Shown here piece after piece: positions 20,082 to 52,503 of a stretch of DNA of 64,000 nucleotides; within the stretch, counting starts at the first letter, position 1, and each line of letters opens with the position of its first letter. Origin of the DNA: Ostreococcus lucimarinus (Eukaryota); assembly GCA_000092065.1 (NCBI GenBank), contig CP000584.1; one strand, written 5' to 3'. The notes beneath the pieces are model-generated. The model saw only the letters and a list, made by a program, of their open reading frames with translations, was not told the DNA's origin and did no database searches. The position numbers and the translations under genes are program-made.

Positions 20082-20332
20082 GATCGGCGTCCCAGATTCT
20101 CGGGACGCTTTTTCGTCGGCACGTTTCGCTCCGACGCCGCGCGTCGACGGCGCGACTCCGCCGCGTGCGCGAGCGACGCGGCGCGACGCGACGCGAGCGC
20201 ATCGGGACGACCGCGAGGGACGACCGCGCGGCGCGCGCGACGCTCTCGGACGCGACGGCGAGCGCGCGCGCGTCGACGCGAACGCGCGAAAAAGCGCAAA
20301 AGTCCGAAGCGATAGGCGACGCGACGCGCGCG

Positions 20333-20422
20333 ATGGCGACGCATCACGGCGCGCACTCGCGGAAATCGACGCCGGATCCCGACGAGGACGACGCGCTGGA
20401 CGATGATCTCGATGATCTCGAG
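20333..20422 (+). CDS. AP2/ERF transcription factor, exon 1 ([30 protein letters not shown]); donor GTGCGAGCG at 20423
   Basis: ATG at 20333, phase-0 donor. The intron has ACTGAC at 20648-20653 and acceptor CGCAG at 20671-20675. Alternative model: an uninterrupted ORF from ATG 20403. Confidence 0.5.
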
Positions 20423-20675
20423 GTGCGAGCGCGAACGCGGGAGAGACGAGGACGAGAGGGAGGAGACGGGGGGGAATTGTGGGAACGCGGGACGACGCGG
20501 GACGACGCGCGGGACGAGGACGCGAGGCGAACGAGACGCGAGCGAACGGCAGAGGACGACGAGGCGAGGACGCGCGATCGGGACGGTAGTGATCGCGAGG
20601 TCGAGCGCGCGAGAGAGAGAGAGGGCGTCGAACGCGGGCGTGGAGGTGACTGACGAGGCGCGACGACGCACGCAG

Positions 20676-21857
20676 GGCGGCAAGGGCGACAAGCAGTCGA
20701 AAAAGGCGACGACGTCGCAGTATCGCGGGGTGAGACAGCGCCCGTGGGGGAGCTGGGCGGCGGAGATACGCGATCCAAATCGAGGCGCGAGATTGTGGCT
20801 CGGCACGTTCGATACCGCCGAAGAGGCGGCGAGAGCGTACGACGCGGCGGCGAGACACATTCGCGGGCCAAACGCGAAGACGAATTTTCAGCTCGCGCCG
20901 GGGGAGGAACCGCCGCCGTTCGTTTTGCCCGAGCCCCCGTCGGGGGGGCGCGGTGGTGGCGGTGGCGGTGGTGGACGCGGCCGGGGCGGACACGACGCGG
21001 GTTTGCCGTCAATCGGAGGTTTCGGCGCCGGAGCGTCGCGCCAGCCCAACGCGCTCAAGAAGCAAAAACCCGTGGGGAAGGACGCGAAGGGGGGTCCGAG
21101 CACTATTTACGGCTTCGGTCCGAGTTCGAGCGACAAGAACTCCACTCCTAAGCGTGGTTCGATAGGTTTCGGCAGTGGCACCGACTTATCCGCCCTCGTC
21201 AACGCCAATCTCGCCTTGGCCAACCAAAACCTCGCCTCGGCCGGGTCGGCGAGAAAGGATCACGAAAACAGTTTCATGAAACTCTTCGCCAACGGTAGCG
21301 TGGGTGGGACGCCGTCGAGCACGGGTGGATCGCCGCTCATTATGCCCGAGTCAGTGGAACTGCGCGACGGCATGAGCGGCATGAGCGGTGAGATTCCGGT
21401 GATTCACGGCAAACGCGACCGCGGTCCGAGCAGCGCGTTTTTTGGCACGTCGTTCGGCGTCGCGGGTTCGTTCGGTTCGATGTTTCCCCCGGACATGGGG
21501 CTGTCCTCAACCCCGGACGGTGTCGACAATTTCTACGGCGAGTTCTCCATGTCCCCCAACGATCGGTCGGCGCACGGTGCAGATCATTTCCCCGTCGGAA
21601 GCTTGGGGACGATGGTCGACTTGAACGACGCGCTGCCGGCGGTGGGATCGCTCGATCTCGGAAGTCCGGTAGACTTAGACTCGATGATGAATTCGTTGCC
21701 GAGAAATAGTGGCGGGAAGGTTCAAACCGTCGCATCTATTCTCGGCAAACCCAAGAAAAAAGAGCACGATTCACCGCTTGGAAGAGCGTCGACGCGCAAC
21801 ACGCGCGAATCCTCGCGCTCGAAGAGCGCGTTGGACGCCATGTCAGCGCTCAAATGA
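20676..21857 (+). CDS. AP2/ERF transcription factor, exon 2 with the AP2 domain ([49 protein letters not shown])
   Basis: Canonical single AP2/ERF DNA-binding domain. Gly- and Ser-rich tail. Confidence 0.8.
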
Positions 21858-32239: not shown

Positions 32240-34307
32240 TCACGCGCTAGGAATGAATTCGCGCGCGGAAAGGTCGAGCTTGGGGACGGCGCCTCGCTTG
32301 GCGTACAGCGCTCGACCGTCGGCGGCCAGCGTCAGCGCGCGTTTGAATTCTTCGTCCGCGCCGTTGTAATCCAGCACGCTGACGATAGAGACGGCTTGGA
32401 TACCCAGCGCTTTTCCTATGCGTCTTTTGGTGAGCGCAAAGATGACTGGAACATCTTTTTCTCGAGCGTCCGCGATTATTTGTCGGACACGGTCGTCGAG
32501 GCCGCCTTCGCTTTCAATCTTCTCGATGTTCGGCGCGATGACGACAACCTTGCTCGTCCGCGCGTCCACGCTTTTCGCGACTTCGCGTAATCCGAAGAGC
32601 AACCGCCGGCGCATCTTCGCCTTAATCTTATCGGTGTGGTACAGACGGTCCTGAAAGCGTTTGAGCGTCGAAAGGAGCGTCTTGGTCGCCTCGTTGAGCT
32701 CGTCGGTGATTATTTGCTCGGCGTATCGTATGTTTAACGCGCCTTCTTCGCCGACGTACGTCTTCGCCGCTTTATTCTGCGACGCCGCTTTCTCCGCCGC
32801 TTCAGGGTCGTCCCGAATCGCGAGCTTTTTCGCATGCAGTTTACCGCCGACGTGCGCGTTCCATGCTTGCTCGCCGAAGCACTTCACGTCGCACACGTCA
32901 CACGTTCGAGTCTCCTGCTTCACCTTGGCCGACTTTGGCTCTGGTTCGCCTTTCAGAACGTCCAGCAAACTTCGCACGCCCCACACCCCGGCCGGTGCAC
33001 GCGCTTCGATGATGTCGAGCTTCTGTTGTACGCTGTGCTCGTCGGCGTTCTCGCCCTCTGCTGCGGCGGATTCGTCCGACACATCTTCATCCGAATCATC
33101 GTCCGAGTCTGCATCCATGCACATGAAATTCACACCAACAGAGTGATTCGTCTCGTCGTACGTCAGAAGCACATACACCCAGTCGACGCGAACCTCGATC
33201 TCGACTTCCACTTCCTCTTCGACGATCTTCTTTGATTCTTCCTCTCGCCGCGTTGTGCGCTCTCGAAGAATTATCTTTTTCAGCGTCGATTGCTTCTTTT
33301 TCTTCCCTTCTCGTCGCGCTTTGCCGCGTTTGGGCACCATGCCCGTCGACGTCGCCATGTTTGTGCTTCTAATCATCTGCTGCTCTTTACCCTCTGCCCT
33401 CGCGTTCTTCGCCGGCTTGTCCGTCTTGAAGTACGTCGCGAGAGAGTTCACCATGCTATTCGAAGTCTTCGTCTTAGAAGACACCAAGTCGCCTAAGTTC
33501 AGCGACACACGATTGACTTGCGTATTGGCCGTCGGTATAATTCCAGCAGCGATCTGCGCCGCCTCTAGAACCTTCGCCTCGGGATTATTCAAACCGTAAT
33601 GCGAAGCGCCGATGTGCTGCTCCAACGCGTCGTACGCCTTGAACGCGCGTCCACACACCTGACACCGAACTTTGCCGAACTTATCCATCACCGACCGCCT
33701 CGACTCGCGATGAAGTAACTCTGCGGTGATGATGGGAAGTTTCGGCGCTAAGGCTTTCGTCGTCGAGACTTGTCGCTTCCCCGTGGGCGCCGCGCGCCGC
33801 GATTCAGACGCCATGATATCCCGTAAACTCGTCCCACCCTCGCGCGTCAATGCCCCGGCGCGCGCTATCGGCGCCGGTTCCGATGTCATCATCTTGACCG
33901 GCTTCACGTTCCACGCCGGCACGCTCGGCGCCGGCGCGGGCGGCAACAACGCAGGCTTCGCCTTCGTCTCGTCCGCCGTCGCGTCGACGCTCTTCGTCTT
34001 CGTCTTCGTCTTCGCCTTCGTCTTCGCCGCGTCTGTCCCGTCTCGCCCATCCCCTTTCCCGCGCTGCTTCATTCTAACGACATCATCGACGTCGCATCGC
34101 ATGCGCCCCTCGTCCATTCTCTCGCGCCGCCACGCCGCGCACTTCGCGACGTCGTCCTCGCTCGCGCCTCGAGCAAACTTGCTGCACCGCGTCCCCTTCC
34201 CCTCGACGACGTGCGCCGTCGCCGCGAACGCCGCGAACACGCGCTGATTCGCCTCGACGTAGTCGTAGATGAGAGCCGCGCTCGCGTCGTCGTACGTCCG
34301 ACCGTCG

Positions 34308-34344
<37 letters not shown>

Positions 34345-34495
34345 GTCGCACGTTGAGCCCGACGAGGACGTTCATCGGCATCGCGCGCGCTTTGCGCGAG
34401 CATACGGCCTCGATCGCCGCCGCGGTGACGTCCACGGACGCGCGCGAGTGTCCATCGACGCACAGCGCGCTCGCGATGTCGCGCGCGCGCGTCAT
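32240..34495 (-). CDS. SBP2: SECIS-binding protein 2 (SBP2)-like selenocysteine-insertion factor with an L7Ae RNA-binding domain and two C2H2/U1-type zinc fingers
   Basis: The C-terminal domain RRRLLFGLREVAKSV…KVVVIAPNIEKIESEGGLDDRVRQIIADAREKDVPVIFALTKRRIGKALG…SIVSVLDYNGADEEF is collinear with the SBP2 L7Ae module. Zinc fingers are CQVCGRAFKAYDALEQHIGASH and CDVCDVKCFGEQAWNAHVGGKLH. ATG is the reverse complement of 34493-34495 (alternatives at 34381/34375). The (GTC)n repeat at 34319-34350 encodes poly-Asp. Confidence 0.7.
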
Positions 34496-34543
34496 CGCGC
34501 GCGCGCGTCGACGTGTGCCGTCACTCGTCGTCGCGTCATCGCG

Positions 34544-46568: not shown

Positions 46569-49142
46569 CTAGAGGACGAGCTTGACCCACGGCATGTCGC
46601 ACGCGTCGTTCTCGCAGTTCTCCACCAGCGCGAACGTGATGTCAGCCATGGGCACGGAGAGGGAAATTTGTTGTAAATTTCTGGCCGTCGAGGCGTCCGT
46701 CATGATGAGGTGCGTGGAACGTAAGCGAGAGGCGATGCGAACGCCGCTCCCAATCGGGGGCTCGGCGACGTTTACGCGCGGATCTTTGCACATCACCTTG
46801 AGCATTTGCATCACCGTGCCCATGTCCACGGTGGTCGTGCCGGTGCGTTGAAGCGCCTTAACCAACGCTATCAAGAACATGCGCTCGTAAAAGCTCGCAG
46901 CGTGAATGAGTTTCATGTGCGGACCGTCGAACATTTCGCTTTGCGCTTGGCGGACGTCGTCCATGGTTACTTTTTCGATGCGAGCCTTGGCGCGCGCTGC
47001 GGCGCCCTCTTCTGGTTGCGCGTTTTGCAAAGTGAGAGTAGTCACCTTTTCGACGTTAATTCTGGCTTCGGCGACTTCCGCCGCTCGCCGCGCGAGTTCG
47101 AGCGCTCGCCGCGCGTCGCCGTTCACCGAAGCAACTTTTCTGCAAATCAAGTCGAGGGTCGACGGCGCGTAGGCGTCGCTGCATCCCTCGACACTTTCCA
47201 GACGCGAGGTGACGATCTTCTTGAGCTGTTCCCAGGAATACGGAGCGAAAGCCGCGCGATTGCTTCCGAGTCGAGACGCGATGCGCGGGAGCATGCGTTC
47301 GGGTACGTCGAGCGTGTTGGCGATGCCGATGACGACGAGTCGACTCTTCTTGTGAGTCGGCCAATCGAAAATATTGTACAGCACGTCTTGCCTGTGCGTA
47401 ACGAGCAAATCAAGCTCGTCGACGATGAGAACTGTGACTCGTCCATCGCTTCCTTTGCCTTCCTTGAATCTCTTCTCCAAGACCATGCTCGCTTTGTCCG
47501 GGCTAAACTTTTGCCCCATCAACTCTTCGGCGATGGTGCTGTACGCGTGCTTGGGCGTTTGCAAACGGAGCGCGTTGAGCTCAACGTGGTTGAACTTTGG
47601 AATCACGCCGTTGCGCGCTTGCGAACGAAGGACCCGTATGATTTCGCGAACTGTCGCCGTCTTGCCCGTACCGGGGACGCCGGAAATGTACAGACATTTT
47701 CCCGTGCTGTGCGAACCCGCCATGATGGCTTCGTGCACGAAGTCGTAGACTTGCTTGCGTTCGTTTTCGCGACACGGCAGCGTCGCCGGCGTCGATGCCA
47801 GAGATAACACAGCGCGCACGCCGCCTAAAACAGTCGACGGGTGCTTCCTACCACGACTGAGAGCGCTGCCACCGAAACCAGCAATCTCCAAACGCGCCGC
47901 CGCGTCTTCCACACGCCGTCGAGCGGCGAGACGACCCGCGAGACGACTGTTGGCGCCCGACTTTTTGTCCTTCTTTTTCTTCGAGTCCCAGTCGTCGTCC
48001 TCTGCGTCGCGCCAGTCTAATTCATTCTCAAAGCGATCGTCGTCGCTGAATTCGTCCTCTTCGCCCCATTCGCCGCGACGCTTGAAGCGCTGAAACGCGG
48101 TGTCGTACGTGTATTCGCACACGTACGTGTCGTGCGATCCTTCCTCTTGATCTCGGAATTCTTGAGGCGTGCACACCTTGGCGACGCGAAATAAGCAATC
48201 GACGGGATTAACGTCGACGTTATGCGTCAAAAACACCTCGCGCCGATGCTGAATGGGTTGGCGTCCCATGTGCGTCTCCTCGGGCAGCGCGTACCATCGC
48301 GCCGCGAATTGGTACTCTCCGTTCTCTTCCCAAATGTGCTCTATACGCGCTAAATGGAACCTACCCGCCATGAACTCCGTGCACGCGGTGCGCGTCAACG
48401 TTTCGATTCGCGGCACCGCGCTCGCGGCCTCCCCGCCCCGCGCACACAACGGACAGTGCCAATCGCTCTCCGGCACGCGCGTCAGCGGCGGCTTGAGACA
48501 GCACATGTGCCACCCGCTCAGACACGTATCGCACTCGAGCATGATTCGATCCGCGTTCGGCGCTTCACCGCACACCATGCAAGGACAATCTTCGTCGTCA
48601 TCGAAATCGACCGTTTTCTCGTTCACCACGTACACGCTATCGCCCACGGCAAACTTTTCGCCTTCCAAATTCACGCACTTCCAATACTTGCGCTTCGGCG
48701 CCGCCGCCGCCGCGTTCAATTTTTTTCCCCTCCCCACCTTTTTCCCGTCCGACCCCCCCCCGACGTCGCTCGCGACGTCCCGCGCGTCGCGCGTCCTCGT
48801 CCTCTCCCCCTCGCTCGCTTTCGCCTTCGTCTTTTTCCCTCCTCTCCCCGACGCGTCCCTCGCCGCGTCGTCGTCTCGCGTCCGCGCCGCCTCCGTCTCC
48901 ATCTCCTTCCTCCCTCGCGCCATCTGCGCCAAAAACGCCGCGTTCGCCCGCTTCTTCTTCTTCTTCTTCTTCGCCTTCCCATCGTTCGCGTCCTCGTCGT
49001 CCCGTCCCGTCGTCGTCGTCGTCGTCGTCGTCTTTCGCTTCGTCGGTCGCGTCCCATCCTCGGTGGCGTACACCCGCGTCGCCATCGCGCGCGCGCGCGA
49101 CGTCGACGCGAGTCGCGATCGCAGTCGCGTCTGCCGCTCCAT
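46569..49142 (-). CDS. ORC1: Origin recognition complex subunit 1 (plant-type: BAH + PHD + AAA+)
   Basis: PHD finger CPCMVCGE…CDTC…WHMCC…HCPLC. BAH segment. Walker A GVPGTGKTAT and Walker B VLIVDELD. Winged-helix C-terminus. Confidence 0.85.
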   Translation of the reverse strand: MERQTRLRSRLASTSRARAMATRVYATEDGTRPTKRKTTTTTTTTGRDDEDANDGKAKKKKKKKRANAAFLAQMARGRKEMETEAARTRDDDAARDASGRGGKKTKAKASEGERTRTRDARDVASDVGGGSDGKKVGRGKKLNAAAAAPKRKYWKCVNLEGEKFAVGDSVYVVNEKTVDFDDDEDCPCMVCGEAPNADRIMLECDTCLSGWHMCCLKPPLTRVPESDWHCPLCARGGEAASAVPRIETLTRTACTEFMAGRFHLARIEHIWEENGEYQFAARWYALPEETHMGRQPIQHRREVFLTHNVDVNPVDCLFRVAKVCTPQEFRDQEEGSHDTYVCEYTYDTAFQRFKRRGEWGEEDEFSDDDRFENELDWRDAEDDDWDSKKKKDKKSGANSRLAGRLAARRRVEDAAARLEIAGFGGSALSRGRKHPSTVLGGVRAVLSLASTPATLPCRENERKQVYDFVHEAIMAGSHSTGKCLYISGVPGTGKTATVREIIRVLRSQARNGVIPKFNHVELNALRLQTPKHAYSTIAEELMGQKFSPDKASMVLEKRFKEGKGSDGRVTVLIVDELDLLVTHRQDVLYNIFDWPTHKKSRLVVIGIANTLDVPERMLPRIASRLGSNRAAFAPYSWEQLKKIVTSRLESVEGCSDAYAPSTLDLICRKVASVNGDARRALELARRAAEVAEARINVEKVTTLTLQNAQPEEGAAARAKARIEKVTMDDVRQAQSEMFDGPHMKLIHAASFYERMFLIALVKALQRTGTTTVDMGTVMQMLKVMCKDPRVNVAEPPIGSGVRIASRLRSTHLIMTDASTARNLQQISLSVPMADITFALVENCENDACDMPWVKLVL

Positions 49143-49288
49143 CTCGTCCGTCGTCCCTCGTCGCCGGCGTCGCGGTGTGAGCGCGCGTCGCGGTGTGCGC
49201 GCACCGCGATTCGAATCGATCGCGCGACAGCTCGAGTTTGAATTCGCGTTCGCGTCGTCGCGAGTGCGACGCGCGCGAGGGACGACGG

Positions 49289-50974
49289 ATGCGCGTCTCG
49301 ACGTCGACGCGCGTCTCGATCGCGGTCGCGTCGACGCCGCGTCGCGCGCGTCGGCGACGACGCGCGAACGCGACGCGACGACGCGCGTTCGACGACGACG
49401 ACGACGACGACGACGGACTCGATGGACTCGTGCGACGGGCGTGCGCGCGAATCGGACGCGGCGACGAGGAAGCGAAAGAGATGACGGCGCGATTGCGGGC
49501 GAATTGGTTCGAGACGGCGGAGGACGTGCGAGGGATGGGGCCGGAGGACGCGCGCGCGGCGGGAATGCCGGCGAGGCTGTACGCGAGCGTGCGGGCGACG
49601 CTGGACGAGGACGAAGAAGACGACGTAGAGGCGAGAAATGGGGAAACGAAGCGCGAGGAGAGCGAAAGTGGGTGGATCGGGGGGGCGCTGCCGGGCGCGG
49701 GAACGCGCGCGCCGACGGTGACGCGAGAGGGAGGGACGGCGCTCGCCGACGTGCGCGTGACGCAACGGCGACGATTGAAACCGTTTTCTCTGCGCGGCGA
49801 AGAGGTGAGCGCGGAGTTGGAGGAAGAGTTGAATACGCTGGTGAGAGATTTGACGTCGAGACGCGTCGGTGGTGGGCGCGCGCCCGTGCGAGAGCGCACG
49901 GCGATGAATCACGTCGCCGTGGCGAAGCAATTCATGGGATGGTTGTGCCGAGAGTCAGAGCACGCGAGCGAGTTTGCGACTCTGAGCGTCGATGGACGCG
50001 TGGTGTTGCGTCCGGGCGTGTCGTTGCGCGACGCGTTTCCGAAGCGCGAATCCGTAGGCGCGAAGTACGCGATAGAATACGTTCAGTGGCTCAGCGACGA
50101 GCGTCGCATCAAATCGACGACGGAGGATTTTCAGCTGCGAAGTCTCGTCGCCTTGGCGAAGTGGGTGCACGCGTTCGTCGAAGACGACGGTATAGCGCCG
50201 CCGTGCGTGCAAGAGCTCGTTCGAGTGCAGCGATCGGCGCGCGATCGCGCGAAAAACGCCCCACACGCCGCGGACGACGACCGAAAATGGCTCGAATGGG
50301 ATCAGTACTTGGCGCTCGTCGAGCATCTCAAACTCGAGTGCGCGCCGCTGGATTGCAACGGCAAAGAGCGCTCTGAGCGCGAAATCGCGATGAGCGTGCA
50401 GCGCTATTTATTGTTCGCCATCTTGGCGTGCATTCCCGATCGCCAGCGAACGTTGCGCGAGCTGCAGTTGAACAAGACGCTCTTTCGCGACGCCTCCACC
50501 GGCGCGTGGATGGTGCGTCACGGCAGCGACGATTACAAAACGGGCGGCGCCTACGGCGAGCGACCCGCGCTCGTGATCGATTCTCGCGTCTATCCAGCGC
50601 TCGAGAGTTGGCTCTCCACCCACCGAGCCGCGTTATCGCCGTCCCACGACTTTGTTTTCACCCGCCCCAACGGCACGCCCTGGACGGTGAGCGAATTGTC
50701 GCGAACGTTTTCCCGCGCCGCCCTTCGCGTCACCGGCCAAAAGACCAATCCCCACTTGATTCGCGACATGATCGTCACCCACGTCCGCTCTCGCGGCATC
50801 GCCAGCGACGCCGAGCTCGAGGCCTTGGCTCGTTTCATGGGTCACTCCAGCGCCATGCAAAAGTCCACCTACGACCGCCGCACGACGCAAGAAAAAGTCA
50901 ACCCGGCGTTGTCGTTGATGGCCAACGTCAACGCCGCCGCGCCGCCGTCGCGACCGGCGTCCGCGCCGTCCTAG
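49289..50974 (+). CDS. Tyrosine-recombinase (phage-integrase fold; Crypton-like) domain protein
   Basis: The C-terminal 300 aa carries the R…K…HxxR…H…Y catalytic tetrad pattern in the right order (…PDRQRTLRELQL…HGSDDYKTGG…NPHLIRDMIVTHVRS…LARFMGHSSAMQKSTYDRRT…). An N-terminal SAM-like core-binding region follows a poly-Asp (GAC)n tract. First ATG at 49289 (alternative 49481); the track start is a GTG. Confidence 0.55.
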   Translation: MRVSTSTRVSIAVASTPRRARRRRRANATRRRAFDDDDDDDDGLDGLVRRACARIGRGDEEAKEMTARLRANWFETAEDVRGMGPEDARAAGMPARLYASVRATLDEDEEDDVEARNGETKREESESGWIGGALPGAGTRAPTVTREGGTALADVRVTQRRRLKPFSLRGEEVSAELEEELNTLVRDLTSRRVGGGRAPVRERTAMNHVAVAKQFMGWLCRESEHASEFATLSVDGRVVLRPGVSLRDAFPKRESVGAKYAIEYVQWLSDERRIKSTTEDFQLRSLVALAKWVHAFVEDDGIAPPCVQELVRVQRSARDRAKNAPHAADDDRKWLEWDQYLALVEHLKLECAPLDCNGKERSEREIAMSVQRYLLFAILACIPDRQRTLRELQLNKTLFRDASTGAWMVRHGSDDYKTGGAYGERPALVIDSRVYPALESWLSTHRAALSPSHDFVFTRPNGTPWTVSELSRTFSRAALRVTGQKTNPHLIRDMIVTHVRSRGIASDAELEALARFMGHSSAMQKSTYDRRTTQEKVNPALSLMANVNAAAPPSRPASAPS

Positions 50975-51372
50975 CGATCGCGGAGTCGATCGATTTTCGG
51001 TCTCGACCGCGGCGTCCGGATCGGATCCCGTCGGCGCGCGCCCGCGATGAAACCAAACCAAACCAAACGCCACCGAACCAAACACAGACACGACGCGACC
51101 ACGCGCCGCCGCGCGGTGACCTCGCCGCAGTCGGGGACGCGAGTCGCGACTCGCCGATTCATCACCGCGCGTCGCCGCGGCGCGACGACGCGCGAGAGCG
51201 GAGAAAGGGCGCTCGAATCGTCGATCGCGAATCGCGTCGAACGCGCGACGCGACCGACGCGCGCGACGCGCGCGACGCCGCGCGACGCGACGGCGCGGGA
51301 CGCGCGATCGACGCCCGGACGCGAATCGACGGGAGGCGCGAGCGACGCGAGGAAACGTCGGCGACGCGCGCG

Positions 51373-52503
51373 ATGGCGCCGAACGACGGCGAACGAACGG
51401 CGTTCGCGCTGAAGATCGCGCGAGGGCGCGTCGTGGAGGTGACGAAGACGAACGGGGAGACGATCGAGGGGGTGTTCGCGGAGACGACGAAGAACGGCGG
51501 CGAGGCGACGATCAAGTACGGATGGACGAAACGCGAGGCGGGGGCGAAAGAGCGGGCGCAGAGGAGCAAACCGATGGAAACGATGGCGATCGCGATGGAT
51601 GAGATCGCGAGCATCACGGCGAGAGACGTGGGGATGAGCGATTTGGCGGTGGGGCCGAGTCGAATGAACGACGACTTCACCGACGGCGGCATCTCGAGAG
51701 GGGCGACGGGACAGGATCGCGAACTCGTCGCGTGGGCGCCGGAAGAGGGCGATGGAGCGAGTGGGATGACGCTCGAGGAAGAGGCTGGGATCGGGGCGAA
51801 GAAGGCGGCGGCGGCGGCGTGGGGGAAGAAATCCGGCGGACAGTGGGACCAATTCTCCGCCAATAAGCAACTCTTCGGCGTCGACACCAAGTTTGACGAA
51901 TCCTTGTACACGACGACGATCGATAAGGCCAAGGGAGGGATCTCCGAAGCCGAGGCCGCGCGCATCGCGTACGAGATTCAGAATCAAATCTCGGACAACC
52001 CGCACGTCGCGGAGGAACGTGGCCAAAAGGCGCTCGCGGATTACGACGAAGAGGAACGATACTCCTCGGTGTTGCCCACGCCGAAAGGCGCGGCGCCGCC
52101 GACGCCGGCGTGGGGCTCGGGCAAGGTGCCGAGCACCGTCGCGCAGCACGCGGAAAAGAAGCCCGCGGGTGAGAAGGCGAAGGACGTCGCCCAGCCCGCG
52201 GACGCGTCCAAGTCCAAGCTCAACGCCGACGCCAAGTCTTTCTCTCTCAGCGCCAAGGCGGCCGAGTTCGTGCCGACGTTCAAAAAGCCAGCCGCGCCGC
52301 AAGTGCCGCCCACGGGACCGCAAATGATGATGTACCCGGGTATCCCGCAAATGCAAGGCCAAATGATGTACATGCCGCAAATGGGCATGGGCGTTCCGCC
52401 GCAAATGCGAGGCATGATGCCGGGTATGCCGTACATGCCGCAACAAGGCATGGGCGTCCCGCACGGTGCGCCTCCCACACGACCACCCGAGGGTGAGAAC
52501 TGA
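51373..52503 (+). CDS. ATXN2: Ataxin-2/PBP1-like protein: Lsm, LsmAD and PAM2 motif
   Basis: The LsmAD block SGGQWDQFSANKQLFGVDTKFDESLYTTTIDK is highly conserved. PAM2 motif SKLNADAKSFSLSAKAAEFVP. Met/Gln/Pro-rich tail. Confidence 0.75.
   Translation: MAPNDGERTAFALKIARGRVVEVTKTNGETIEGVFAETTKNGGEATIKYGWTKREAGAKERAQRSKPMETMAIAMDEIASITARDVGMSDLAVGPSRMNDDFTDGGISRGATGQDRELVAWAPEEGDGASGMTLEEEAGIGAKKAAAAAWGKKSGGQWDQFSANKQLFGVDTKFDESLYTTTIDKAKGGISEAEAARIAYEIQNQISDNPHVAEERGQKALADYDEEERYSSVLPTPKGAAPPTPAWGSGKVPSTVAQHAEKKPAGEKAKDVAQPADASKSKLNADAKSFSLSAKAAEFVPTFKKPAAPQVPPTGPQMMMYPGIPQMQGQMMYMPQMGMGVPPQMRGMMPGMPYMPQQGMGVPHGAPPTRPPEGEN

What the first reader, a model, noticed from the sequence alone, without database searches (positions are those of the whole stretch)
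32240..34495. SBP2-like selenocysteine insertion factor, carrying extra C2H2/U1-type zinc fingers
The L7Ae-type RNA-binding domain is collinear with SBP2, the SECIS-binding protein needed to recode UGA as selenocysteine. Its presence implies a functioning selenoproteome in this organism, with in-frame TGA genes and 3'UTR SECIS elements elsewhere. The protein additionally has two matrin/U1-like C2H2 fingers and a poly-Asp tract, which is atypical for metazoan SBP2.
Basis: partly seen in the sequence, partly recalled or inferred. Interest (0 to 1): 0.5.

Follow-up and report, generated by a model that had tools for sequence, protein, structure and literature searches.

The report
Green-algal SECIS-binding protein 2 gene
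This is the ordinary, intact gene for SBP2, the protein that lets ribosomes read UGA as selenocysteine, in a Micromonas-like green alga; its two extra zinc fingers are standard for green-algal SBP2.

Summary
An intron-free 751-codon ORF on the minus strand (32240-34495) encodes a protein whose C-terminal L7Ae domain matches human SBP2 at E=6e-34, against 1e-4 for the best ribosomal L7a. It has the SBP2 signatures RFQDR and GLREV, and a collinear Sec-incorporation domain with a QLDL-like motif and the K-rich STLKKIILRER. Both C2H2 fingers and the poly-Asp run are present.

The SBP2 interpretation is supported. Proteins differing at 3 of 751 residues are already labelled SBP2 by JGI. SBP2 has been catalogued across green algae, and Mamiellales carry more than 20 selenoproteins.

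The "atypical" fingers are the norm in the green lineage. Finger 1 occurs in Chloropicon, Tetraselmis, Prasinoderma and Spirogloea, and finger 2 (zf-met, dsRNA-binding type) in the chlorophyte members. The poly-Asp run is a variable loop.

- a confidently folded N-terminal, possibly winged-helix-like domain;
- a C-terminal PAM2-like motif (LDLSAREFIP), enriched about 100-fold across the SBP2 family. It is C-terminal in green algae and N-terminal in animals.

No tRNA-Sec, SECIS, selenoprotein or Sec-machinery gene lies in these 64 kb. Verdict: real, correctly interpreted, largely already known, low to moderate interest.

The parts
32240..34495 (-). Complete SBP2 (SECIS-binding protein 2) coding sequence: 751 codons plus a TGA stop, no introns
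   Evidence: Collinear with 18 full-length relatives. E=6e-34 to human SBP2 (7zjw_B).
34058..34495 (-). N-terminal folded domain (aa 1-146), possibly winged-helix-like, function unknown. Also present in other Mamiellophyceae-type relatives and weakly in Prasinoderma.
34313..34342 (-). Poly-Asp run (D52-D61), a variable loop inside the N-terminal domain
   Evidence: Not conserved among relatives. pLDDT below 50.
33599..33664 (-). Zinc finger 1 (aa 278-299, C-x2-C-x12-H-x4-H), immediately N-terminal of the Sec-incorporation domain
   Evidence: C278, C281, H294 and H299 are invariant in 29 sequences. Pfam C2H2 models score below threshold. pLDDT about 90. Present in Chloropicon, Tetraselmis, Prasinoderma and Spirogloea.
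33251..33511 (-). Sec-incorporation domain (SID) equivalent, aa 329-415: QLDL-like motif RVSLNLGDLV (329-338) and K-rich motif KRGKARREGKKKKQSTLKKIILRER (389-413)
   Evidence: hhalign against the metazoan SBP2 SID gives probability 96.2%, E=2.2e-9. phmmer domain 2 aligns to human SBP2 residues 495-548.
33116..33223 (-). Conserved acidic beta-hairpin-like stretch (aa 425-460, EEEVEVEIEVRVDWVYV...MCMD), function unknown
   Evidence: Invariant residues. Modelled as two strands at low confidence.
32834..32902 (-). Zinc finger 2 (aa 532-554, C-x2-C-x12-H-x5-H), zf-met / JAZ-type dsRNA-binding finger between the SID and the RBD
   Evidence: Pfam zf-met scores 25.0 bits, above the gathering score of 21.2. 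zf-met matches 25 of 29 relatives and zf-C2H2_jaz 24 of 29. pLDDT about 85.
32291..32728 (-). SBP2-type L7Ae RNA-binding domain (aa 590-735) with RFQDR (613-617) and GLREV (635-639)
   Evidence: top fold match 7zjx_B, E=2e-12.
32249..32278 (-). C-terminal PAM2-like motif LDLSAREFIP (aa 740-749), two residues before the stop
   Evidence: The pattern is conserved at the extreme C-terminus of green-lineage SBP2s. It has the same L/A/EF/P positions as the PAM2 of the ataxin-2 homologue encoded in this window. The Pfam PAM2 model gives no hit on the isolated peptides.

Best explanation
The gene encodes the alga's SBP2 orthologue, the trans-acting factor for UGA-to-selenocysteine recoding.

Mechanism, inferred from established SBP2 biology:
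- The L7Ae-type RBD (RFQDR, GLREV) together with the K-rich STLKKIILRER stretch binds the kink-turn (GA quartet) of SECIS hairpins in selenoprotein 3'UTRs.
- The SID works with the RBD to recruit eEFSec/Sec-tRNA(Sec) to a ribosome paused at UGA.

The green-lineage layout is: N-terminal domain, finger 1, SID, finger 2, RBD, PAM2-like tail.

Two further steps are conjecture. Finger 2, which is of the dsRNA-binding zf-met/JAZ type, may add a contact to an A-form helix of the SECIS stem or of rRNA. The C-terminal PAM2-like peptide may dock on the MLLE domain of poly(A)-binding protein and so hold SBP2 at the 3' end of the mRNA.

Shown here: family assignment, domain order, conservation. Inferred: RNA binding and recoding activity. 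Speculative: the roles of the fingers and of the tail.
For: - Sequence: phmmer against PDB gives human SBP2 E=6e-34, with the next best hit (L7a) at 1e-4.
- Profile-profile comparison with metazoan SBP2: RBD E=6.9e-44; SID probability 96.2%, E=2.2e-9, with the QLDL and K-rich motifs in register.
- Structure: the top Foldseek hit is SBP2 bound to SECIS and ribosome, 7zjx_B, E=2e-12.
- Conservation: 18 full-length relatives with conserved blocks along the whole protein. [quoted passage not shown]
- Named relative: collinear over aa 263-750 with the NCBI-annotated Chloropicon primus SECIS-binding protein, E=5e-39.
- Synteny: the same DUF1295 / SBP2 / DSP-phosphatase arrangement in a 55%-identical relative.
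- Family size: 1424 representatives at E<=1e-3.
- Literature: Mamiellales have more than 20 selenoproteins (PMC7539508), and SBP2 was found in nearly all Sec-using Archaeplastida (PMC6627142).
- Finger type.
- PAM2-like motif: 45 of 164 family members carry it, against 0.4 expected from shuffles. The strict pattern occurs only twice in the six-frame translation of the 64 kb, here and at the ataxin-2 homologue's PAM2.
Against: - Nothing in the window shows Sec use directly. There is no tRNA, no Rfam hit at gathering score and no SECIS match at E<=5, no convincing in-frame-TGA gene, and no Sec-machinery domain among 30 ORFs scanned.
- The source organism is not identified by name. 'Micromonas-like Mamiellophyceae' is inferred from 64% GC, compact intron-poor genes, plant-type genes (an AP2-domain protein and an ORC1-like BAH+PHD+AAA protein) and the distribution of homologues.
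- The Pfam PAM2 model does not match the tail peptide, and finger 1 is below Pfam thresholds.
- No binding or activity data exist for any green-algal SBP2, as far as I could find.
Confidence: 0.9

Rival explanations
1. An SBP2-derived protein that no longer serves selenocysteine insertion. It would act as a general 3'UTR or poly(A)-associated mRNA regulator through its zinc fingers, K-turn-binding domain and PAM2-like tail, in the way vertebrate SECISBP2L has partly diverged.
For: There are extra RNA-binding-type fingers and a PAM2-like tail. No selenoprotein gene or SECIS lies in the window.
Against: All SBP2-specific motifs needed for SECIS binding and recoding are intact and invariant (RFQDR, GLREV, LKKIILRER, QLDL-like). 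Only one orthologue group appears among the close relatives. The clade is selenoprotein-rich, so it needs an SBP2 (PMC7539508).
Confidence: 0.06
2. A generic L7Ae-family K-turn-binding protein (a paralogue of Nhp2, Snu13/15.5K, eL8 or eL30) fused to zinc fingers, unrelated to SBP2.
For: The Pfam hit is to the generic Ribosomal_L7Ae model, and archaeal L7Ae structures superpose well.
Against: SBP2 scores about 100 bits higher than any other L7Ae protein. RFQDR/GLREV and the SID are SBP2-specific and present.
Confidence: 0.02
3. A spurious long ORF or a pseudogene in GC-rich DNA.
For: Long non-coding ORFs are common in this 64% GC window.
Against: Amino-acid conservation runs the full length down to 49% identity among close relatives, with collinear matches at 24-31% identity in more distant green algae. 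Zinc ligands are invariant, the domains are predicted with confidence, and synteny is conserved.
Confidence: 0.01

Closest known systems
Human/rat SBP2 (SECISBP2; PDB 7ZJW/7ZJX)
   Same: L7Ae-type RBD (39% identity between the family profiles) with RFQDR and GLREV. SID with a QLDL-like motif and the K-rich LKKIILKER motif. The order SID then RBD is the same.
   Different: The algal protein has two C2H2 fingers flanking the SID, a different N-terminal domain, and no vertebrate N-terminal extension or C-terminal IWKK region. The PAM2-like 'LSAD' motif is C-terminal here instead of N-terminal (PMC2746813).
Chloropicon primus 'selenocysteine insertion sequence-binding protein' (QDZ18440.1) and other green-lineage SBP2s (Tetraselmis, Prasinoderma, Spirogloea, Chlamydomonas sp. 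UWO241)
   Same: The layout finger 1 - SID - finger 2 - RBD - C-terminal L..xA..F.P motif is shared. The alignment is collinear over aa 263-750 (E=5e-39).
   Different: Identity is only 28%. Chloropicon lacks the N-terminal domain. By pattern search, Prasinoderma and Spirogloea have finger 1 only and Chlamydomonas sp. UWO241 has finger 2 only.
JAZ/ZNF346-type and U1C/matrin-type dsRNA-binding zinc fingers (Pfam zf-C2H2_jaz, zf-met)
   Same: Finger 2 has the C-x2-C-x12-H-x5-H spacing and passes the zf-met threshold.
   Different: There is a single finger embedded in an SBP2 rather than an array. dsRNA binding was not tested.
PAM2 motifs of ataxin-2 and Paip2 (ligands of the PABP MLLE domain)
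   Same: Leu, Ala, (Glu-)Phe and Pro sit at the PAM2 positions. The motif resembles the LSAKAAEFVP of the ataxin-2 homologue in this same window. The Paip2 comparison (LNPNAKEFVP) is from my own knowledge.
   Different: No Pfam PAM2 hit. Binding to MLLE is untested. The literature I could search does not describe SBP2 as a PAM2 protein.

Membership tests
SBP2 / SECISBP2 | The L7Ae-type RNA-binding domain is closer to SBP2 than to any other L7Ae-family protein | tested here: met
   E=6e-34 against 1e-4 or worse; hhalign E=6.9e-44; top fold hit 7zjx_B.
SBP2 / SECISBP2 | RBD signature motifs RFQDR and G-L-R-E-V (the Gly whose mutation abolishes SECIS binding in rat SBP2, from my own knowledge) | tested here: met
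   KRFQDRLYH at aa 612-620 and FGLREVAKS at aa 634-642. Within them F614, Q615, D616, R617, G635, L636, R637, E638 and V639 are invariant in the 12-sequence alignment of close relatives; Q615, R617, G635 and E638 remain invariant, and L636 and V639 nearly so, across 29 green-lineage sequences.
SBP2 / SECISBP2 | A Sec-incorporation domain upstream of the RBD, with the K-rich LKKIILKER motif and the QLDL motif (Donovan & Copeland 2009, PMC2746813) | tested here: met
   STLKKIILRER at aa 403-413 and RVSLNLGDLV at aa 329-338. hhalign probability 96.2%, E=2.2e-9. phmmer domain 2.
SBP2 / SECISBP2 | Binds SECIS RNA and supports UGA recoding | not testable with these tools
   Needs EMSA and an in vitro recoding assay.
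SBP2 / SECISBP2 | Co-occurs with tRNA-Sec, eEFSec, PSTK, SecS, SPS2 and SECIS-bearing selenoprotein genes in the same genome | not testable with these tools
   Only 64 kb is available and none of these lie in it. The literature reports more than 20 selenoproteins in Mamiellales (PMC7539508).
zf-met / U1-like dsRNA-binding C2H2 finger (finger 2) | C-x2-C-x12-H-x5-H spacing and a score above the Pfam gathering threshold | tested here: met
   25.0 bits against 21.2; 25 of 29 relatives match.
C2H2 zinc finger (finger 1) | Cys2-His2 ligands with canonical spacing and a match to a Pfam C2H2 model | tested here: inconclusive
   The ligands are invariant in 29 sequences and pLDDT is about 90. The best Pfam score is 17.4-17.6 bits, below the thresholds of 25-27.
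PAM2 (PABP MLLE-binding motif) | Consensus L-x-x-x-A-x-x-F-x-P with Leu3, Ala7, Phe10 and Pro12 | tested here: met
   LDLSAREFIP. Enriched in the family, 45 of 164 against 0.4 expected. Matches the in-window ataxin-2 PAM2.
PAM2 (PABP MLLE-binding motif) | Recognised by the Pfam PAM2 profile | tested here: not met
   No hit at E<=10 on four isolated peptides. Peptides this short may be lost to the HMMER filters.
PAM2 (PABP MLLE-binding motif) | Physical binding to the MLLE domain of PABP | not testable with these tools
   Needs ITC or a pull-down.

The most novel reading that the evidence does not exclude
Green-lineage SBP2 is an undescribed architectural variant (finger 1 - SID - dsRNA-type finger 2 - RBD - PAM2-like tail). 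The PAM2-like peptide is an ancestral, family-wide SBP2 feature: the function-less 'LSAD' motif at the N-terminus of animal SBP2/SBP2L and the C-terminal tail in green algae. It would tether SBP2 to poly(A)-binding protein and so couple SECIS decoding to the poly(A) tail, while the fingers would add SECIS or rRNA helix contacts.
Probability: 0.3. Interest if true: 0.5.

Novelty: already known. Interest (0 to 1): 0.25.

Why it matters
The gene confirms that this alga carries the dedicated recoding factor for selenocysteine. That is expected for Mamiellophyceae, which have some of the largest selenoproteomes among green algae.

The useful by-product is descriptive. Green-lineage SBP2 has a conserved layout with two zinc fingers, and the family carries a PAM2-like peptide (at the C-terminus in green algae) that is not discussed in the literature I could search. 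If the peptide binds PABP, it would give a testable function to the long-unexplained 'LSAD' motif of animal SBP2/SBP2L. It would also suggest a link between SECIS-dependent recoding and the poly(A) tail.

Tried and rejected
- Homologue searches, with the C-terminal 225 aa and with a 16-sequence finger 2 + RBD alignment, returned only 9 and 13 close fragments. They did not extend the taxonomic picture. Whether finger-bearing SBP2 exists outside Viridiplantae remains open, because several finger-bearing representatives are unnamed metagenome proteins.
- Exact look-up of the window protein in the assembly index found nothing on record. The organism could therefore not be named.
- The Pfam PAM2 model on isolated tail peptides gave no hit.
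- Rfam in gathering mode gave no hit and in E<=5 mode gave no SECIS match; ARAGORN found no tRNA.
- A home-made scan for coding-like sequence on both sides of an in-frame TGA gave seven places. None had a redox motif in a convincing gene.
- The afdb50 fold library was unavailable.
- Rejected readings: an Nhp2/15.5K/L30 identity, an intron-containing gene model, and any functional significance for the poly-Asp run.

Full report
**1. What is in the sequence**

The minus strand carries an uninterrupted ORF from the ATG at 34495 to a TGA stop at 32240-32242, 751 codons in all. Its base composition by codon position is coding-like, with GC2 0.45 and GC3 0.72.

Eighteen full-length relatives of 730-814 aa and 49-99% identity, all from marine metagenomes and assemblies, align from Met1 to the C-terminus with no frame break. 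The gene model is therefore intron-free and the start codon is right.

A relative that is 55% identical sits in the same neighbourhood on a 927-kb contig. There too a DUF1295 gene lies head-to-head with it, a dual-specificity phosphatase gene lies downstream and a RING-finger gene lies upstream (compared). This is a real, conserved, protein-coding gene.

**2.

- **L7Ae domain.** Pfam finds Ribosomal_L7Ae at aa 625-714, E=3.5e-12.
- **Finger 2.** Pfam zf-met matches aa 531-554 at 25.0 bits, above the gathering score of 21.2. The spacing C-x2-C-x12-H-x5-H is that of U1/matrin/JAZ-type dsRNA-binding fingers.
- **Finger 1.** At aa 278-299 the spacing is C-x2-C-x12-H-x4-H, and only sub-threshold C2H2 matches are found. 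Its four ligand residues are invariant in 29 relatives, and the modelled block has pLDDT about 90.
- **Poly-Asp.** The ten-Asp run (aa 52-61) is real. It varies in length or is absent in relatives and forms a low-confidence loop in the model.

**3. Is it SBP2?**

It does not.

- Against all PDB sequences, human SBP2 scores E=6e-34. Residues 591-731 align to SBP2 632-773 at 106.8 bits. The next best hit, a trypanosomatid L7a, is at 1e-4, and Snu13, Nhp2 and archaeal L7Ae are at 1e-3 to 1e-1.
- A profile of the algal family against a profile of 17 metazoan-type SBP2 representatives gives E=6.9e-44 over the RBD.
- The SBP2 signatures RFQDR (aa 613-617) and GLREV (aa 635-639) are conserved.
- Upstream, the Sec-incorporation domain is collinear. 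RVSLNLGDLV (aa 329-338) aligns with the metazoan QLDL motif. STNMATSTGMVPKRGKARREGKKKKQSTLKKIILRER aligns with HNPLDS...KKGKQRE...LKKIILKER. The hhalign probability is 96.2% and E=2.2e-9. These motifs are defined in PMC2746813.
- An AlphaFold2 model built from 29 sequences is confident in the folded blocks. Its best PDB match by Foldseek is SBP2 in the SECIS-programmed ribosome, 7zjx_B, E=2e-12, ahead of archaeal L7Ae at about 1e-6.
[quoted passage not shown] One of them differs from the window protein at 3 of 751 residues.

**4. Are the extra features atypical?**

They are atypical relative to animals but not relative to green algae.

An exhaustive HMMER search of 1.84 billion representatives found 1424 family members at E<=1e-3. 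Among the best 147, about 30 carry fingers in the same places. Finger 1 has the form C..CGR.F.....L[EA]QH....H and lies well upstream. Finger 2 has the form C..C...C........H.....H and lies about 80-90 residues before RFQDR.

Named members show the following:

| Organism | Fingers by pattern search | Note |
|---|---|---|
| Chloropicon primus (QDZ18440.1) | both | NCBI name 'selenocysteine insertion sequence-binding protein' |
| Tetraselmis astigmatica | both | |
| Chlamydomonas sp. UWO241 | finger 2 only | |
| Prasinoderma coloniale | finger 1 only | |
| Spirogloea muscicola (streptophyte) | finger 1 only | |

The window protein aligns collinearly with the Chloropicon protein from finger 1 to the last residues: aa 263-750, 28% identity, E=5e-39. 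In 29 green-lineage sequences Pfam finds L7Ae in 29, zf-met in 25 and zf-C2H2_jaz in 24.

Finger 1 therefore appears to be a Viridiplantae-wide feature of SBP2, and finger 2 at least chlorophyte-wide. Whether either occurs outside the green lineage could not be settled, because the remaining finger-bearing representatives are unnamed (searches added nothing).

I found no paper that mentions zinc fingers in SBP2. The library searched is incomplete, so this is not proof that the layout is undescribed.

**5.

*(b) A C-terminal PAM2-like motif.* The last twelve residues contain LDLSAREFIP (aa 740-749). This has the Leu, Ala, Phe and Pro positions of the PAM2 motif that binds the MLLE domain of poly(A)-binding protein (consensus from my own knowledge).

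- The pattern L[NSDTCKR]xxAxxFxP occurs in 45 of 164 SBP2-family sequences. Residue shuffles give a mean of 0.4 and a maximum of 3 in 200 trials.
- In finger-bearing members it lies within 25 residues of the C-terminus in 16 of 46, and never at the N-terminus.
- In finger-less, animal-type members it lies within the first 45 residues in 15 of 118. There it corresponds to the 'LSAD 15-26' motif that Donovan and Copeland described as globally conserved, with no function assigned (PMC2746813).
- The same 64-kb window encodes an ataxin-2 homologue (SM-ATX + LsmAD domains). Its PAM2 motif, in the expected position, reads LSAKAAEFVP. The strict pattern L[NSD]..A.[EP]F.P occurs only at these two places in all six reading frames of the window.
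- The Pfam PAM2 profile did not match the isolated peptides.
- No paper I could search links SBP2 with PAM2.

This is a lead, not a demonstration.

**6. Does the window show selenocysteine use?**

No. ARAGORN finds no tRNA. Rfam finds nothing at gathering score and no SECIS at E<=5. A scan for coding-like sequence on both sides of an in-frame TGA gave nothing convincing.

Pfam scans of 30 long ORFs found ordinary nuclear genes and no eEFSec, PSTK, SecS or SPS. The genes found include Rit1, TELO2, a Swi3-like protein, kinases, a dual-specificity phosphatase, DUF1295, a RING protein, an S41 peptidase, an APE-like nuclease, an ORC1-like protein with BAH and PHD domains, ataxin-2, PrmA, a DEAD-box helicase, an AP2-domain protein and a UbiA prenyltransferase.

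This is uninformative for a 64-kb sample. Published surveys report more than 20 selenoproteins in every Mamiellales species examined (PMC7539508) and SBP2 in nearly all Sec-using Archaeplastida (PMC6627142).

That the window comes from a Micromonas-like member of that group is my inference. It rests on 64% GC, dense intron-poor genes, the plant-type genes listed above and the distribution of homologues. No named record matched.

**7. Mechanism**

The best-supported reading is the canonical one. The RBD and the K-rich stretch bind the SECIS kink-turn. The SID cooperates with the RBD to bring eEFSec/Sec-tRNA(Sec) to a ribosome at UGA.

Finger 2 lies in the SID-RBD linker, which PMC2746813 reports is dispensable for Sec incorporation in mammalian SBP2, and it is of a dsRNA-binding type. 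A plausible role is an extra contact to a SECIS helix or an rRNA expansion segment. Finger 1 abuts the SID. The tail may bind PABP. The roles of the fingers and the tail are conjecture.

Rival readings are unlikely, for the reasons given in sections 1 and 3. These are a non-Sec SBP2 derivative, a generic L7Ae protein, and a spurious ORF.

**8. Verdict**

The gene is a clade-typical SBP2 that automated pipelines and published surveys already recognise, so the finding as stated is already known and of low to moderate interest.

The green-lineage finger layout and the family-wide PAM2-like peptide are modest, testable additions.

Noticed in passing
window 32249-32278 (-), aa 740-749 of the SBP2 protein: A PAM2-like motif, LDLSAREFIP, lies at the extreme C-terminus. 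The same L..xA..F.P motif is C-terminal in green-lineage SBP2s and N-terminal in animal-type SBP2/SBP2L, where it is the function-less 'LSAD' motif of PMC2746813. It occurs in 45 of 164 family members against 0.4 expected by chance.
   Followed up: partly
window 50377-52503 (+); PAM2 at about 52246-52275: An ataxin-2 homologue (SM-ATX + LsmAD domains) with its canonical PAM2 motif LSAKAAEFVP. It served as an in-genome reference for the SBP2 tail.
   Followed up: partly
window 49934-50974 (+): A 346-aa ORF between the ORC1-like gene and the ataxin-2 gene looks like a tyrosine recombinase. It has HxxR and GH...Y motifs. Pfam Phage_integrase scores 26.3 bits, just under the 27.1 gathering score. 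PHROG_1 integrase scores E=1.5e-8. There is no PDB sequence hit. It may be a remnant of a mobile element or a domesticated recombinase in an algal nuclear genome.
   Followed up: partly
window 34496-34543: Only 48 bp separate the divergent start codons of SBP2 (34495, minus strand) and the DUF1295 gene (34544, plus strand). The same head-to-head pair, 23 bp apart, occurs in relative L001. Only 52 bp separate the SBP2 stop from the stop of the convergent downstream ORF (32187). Transcripts probably overlap.
   Followed up: partly
[not shown]
   Followed up: partly
window 33116-33223 (-), aa 425-460: A conserved alternating acidic/hydrophobic stretch, EEEVEVEIEVRVDWVYV...MCMD, lies between the SID and finger 2. 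It is modelled as a beta-hairpin at low confidence, and its function is unknown.
   Followed up: no
window 46572-49931 (-) and 20316-21854 (+): An ORC1-like protein with a PHD finger inside its BAH domain, followed by an AAA+ module, and an AP2-domain protein. Both are plant-type features that support a green-lineage nuclear origin for the window.
   Followed up: no
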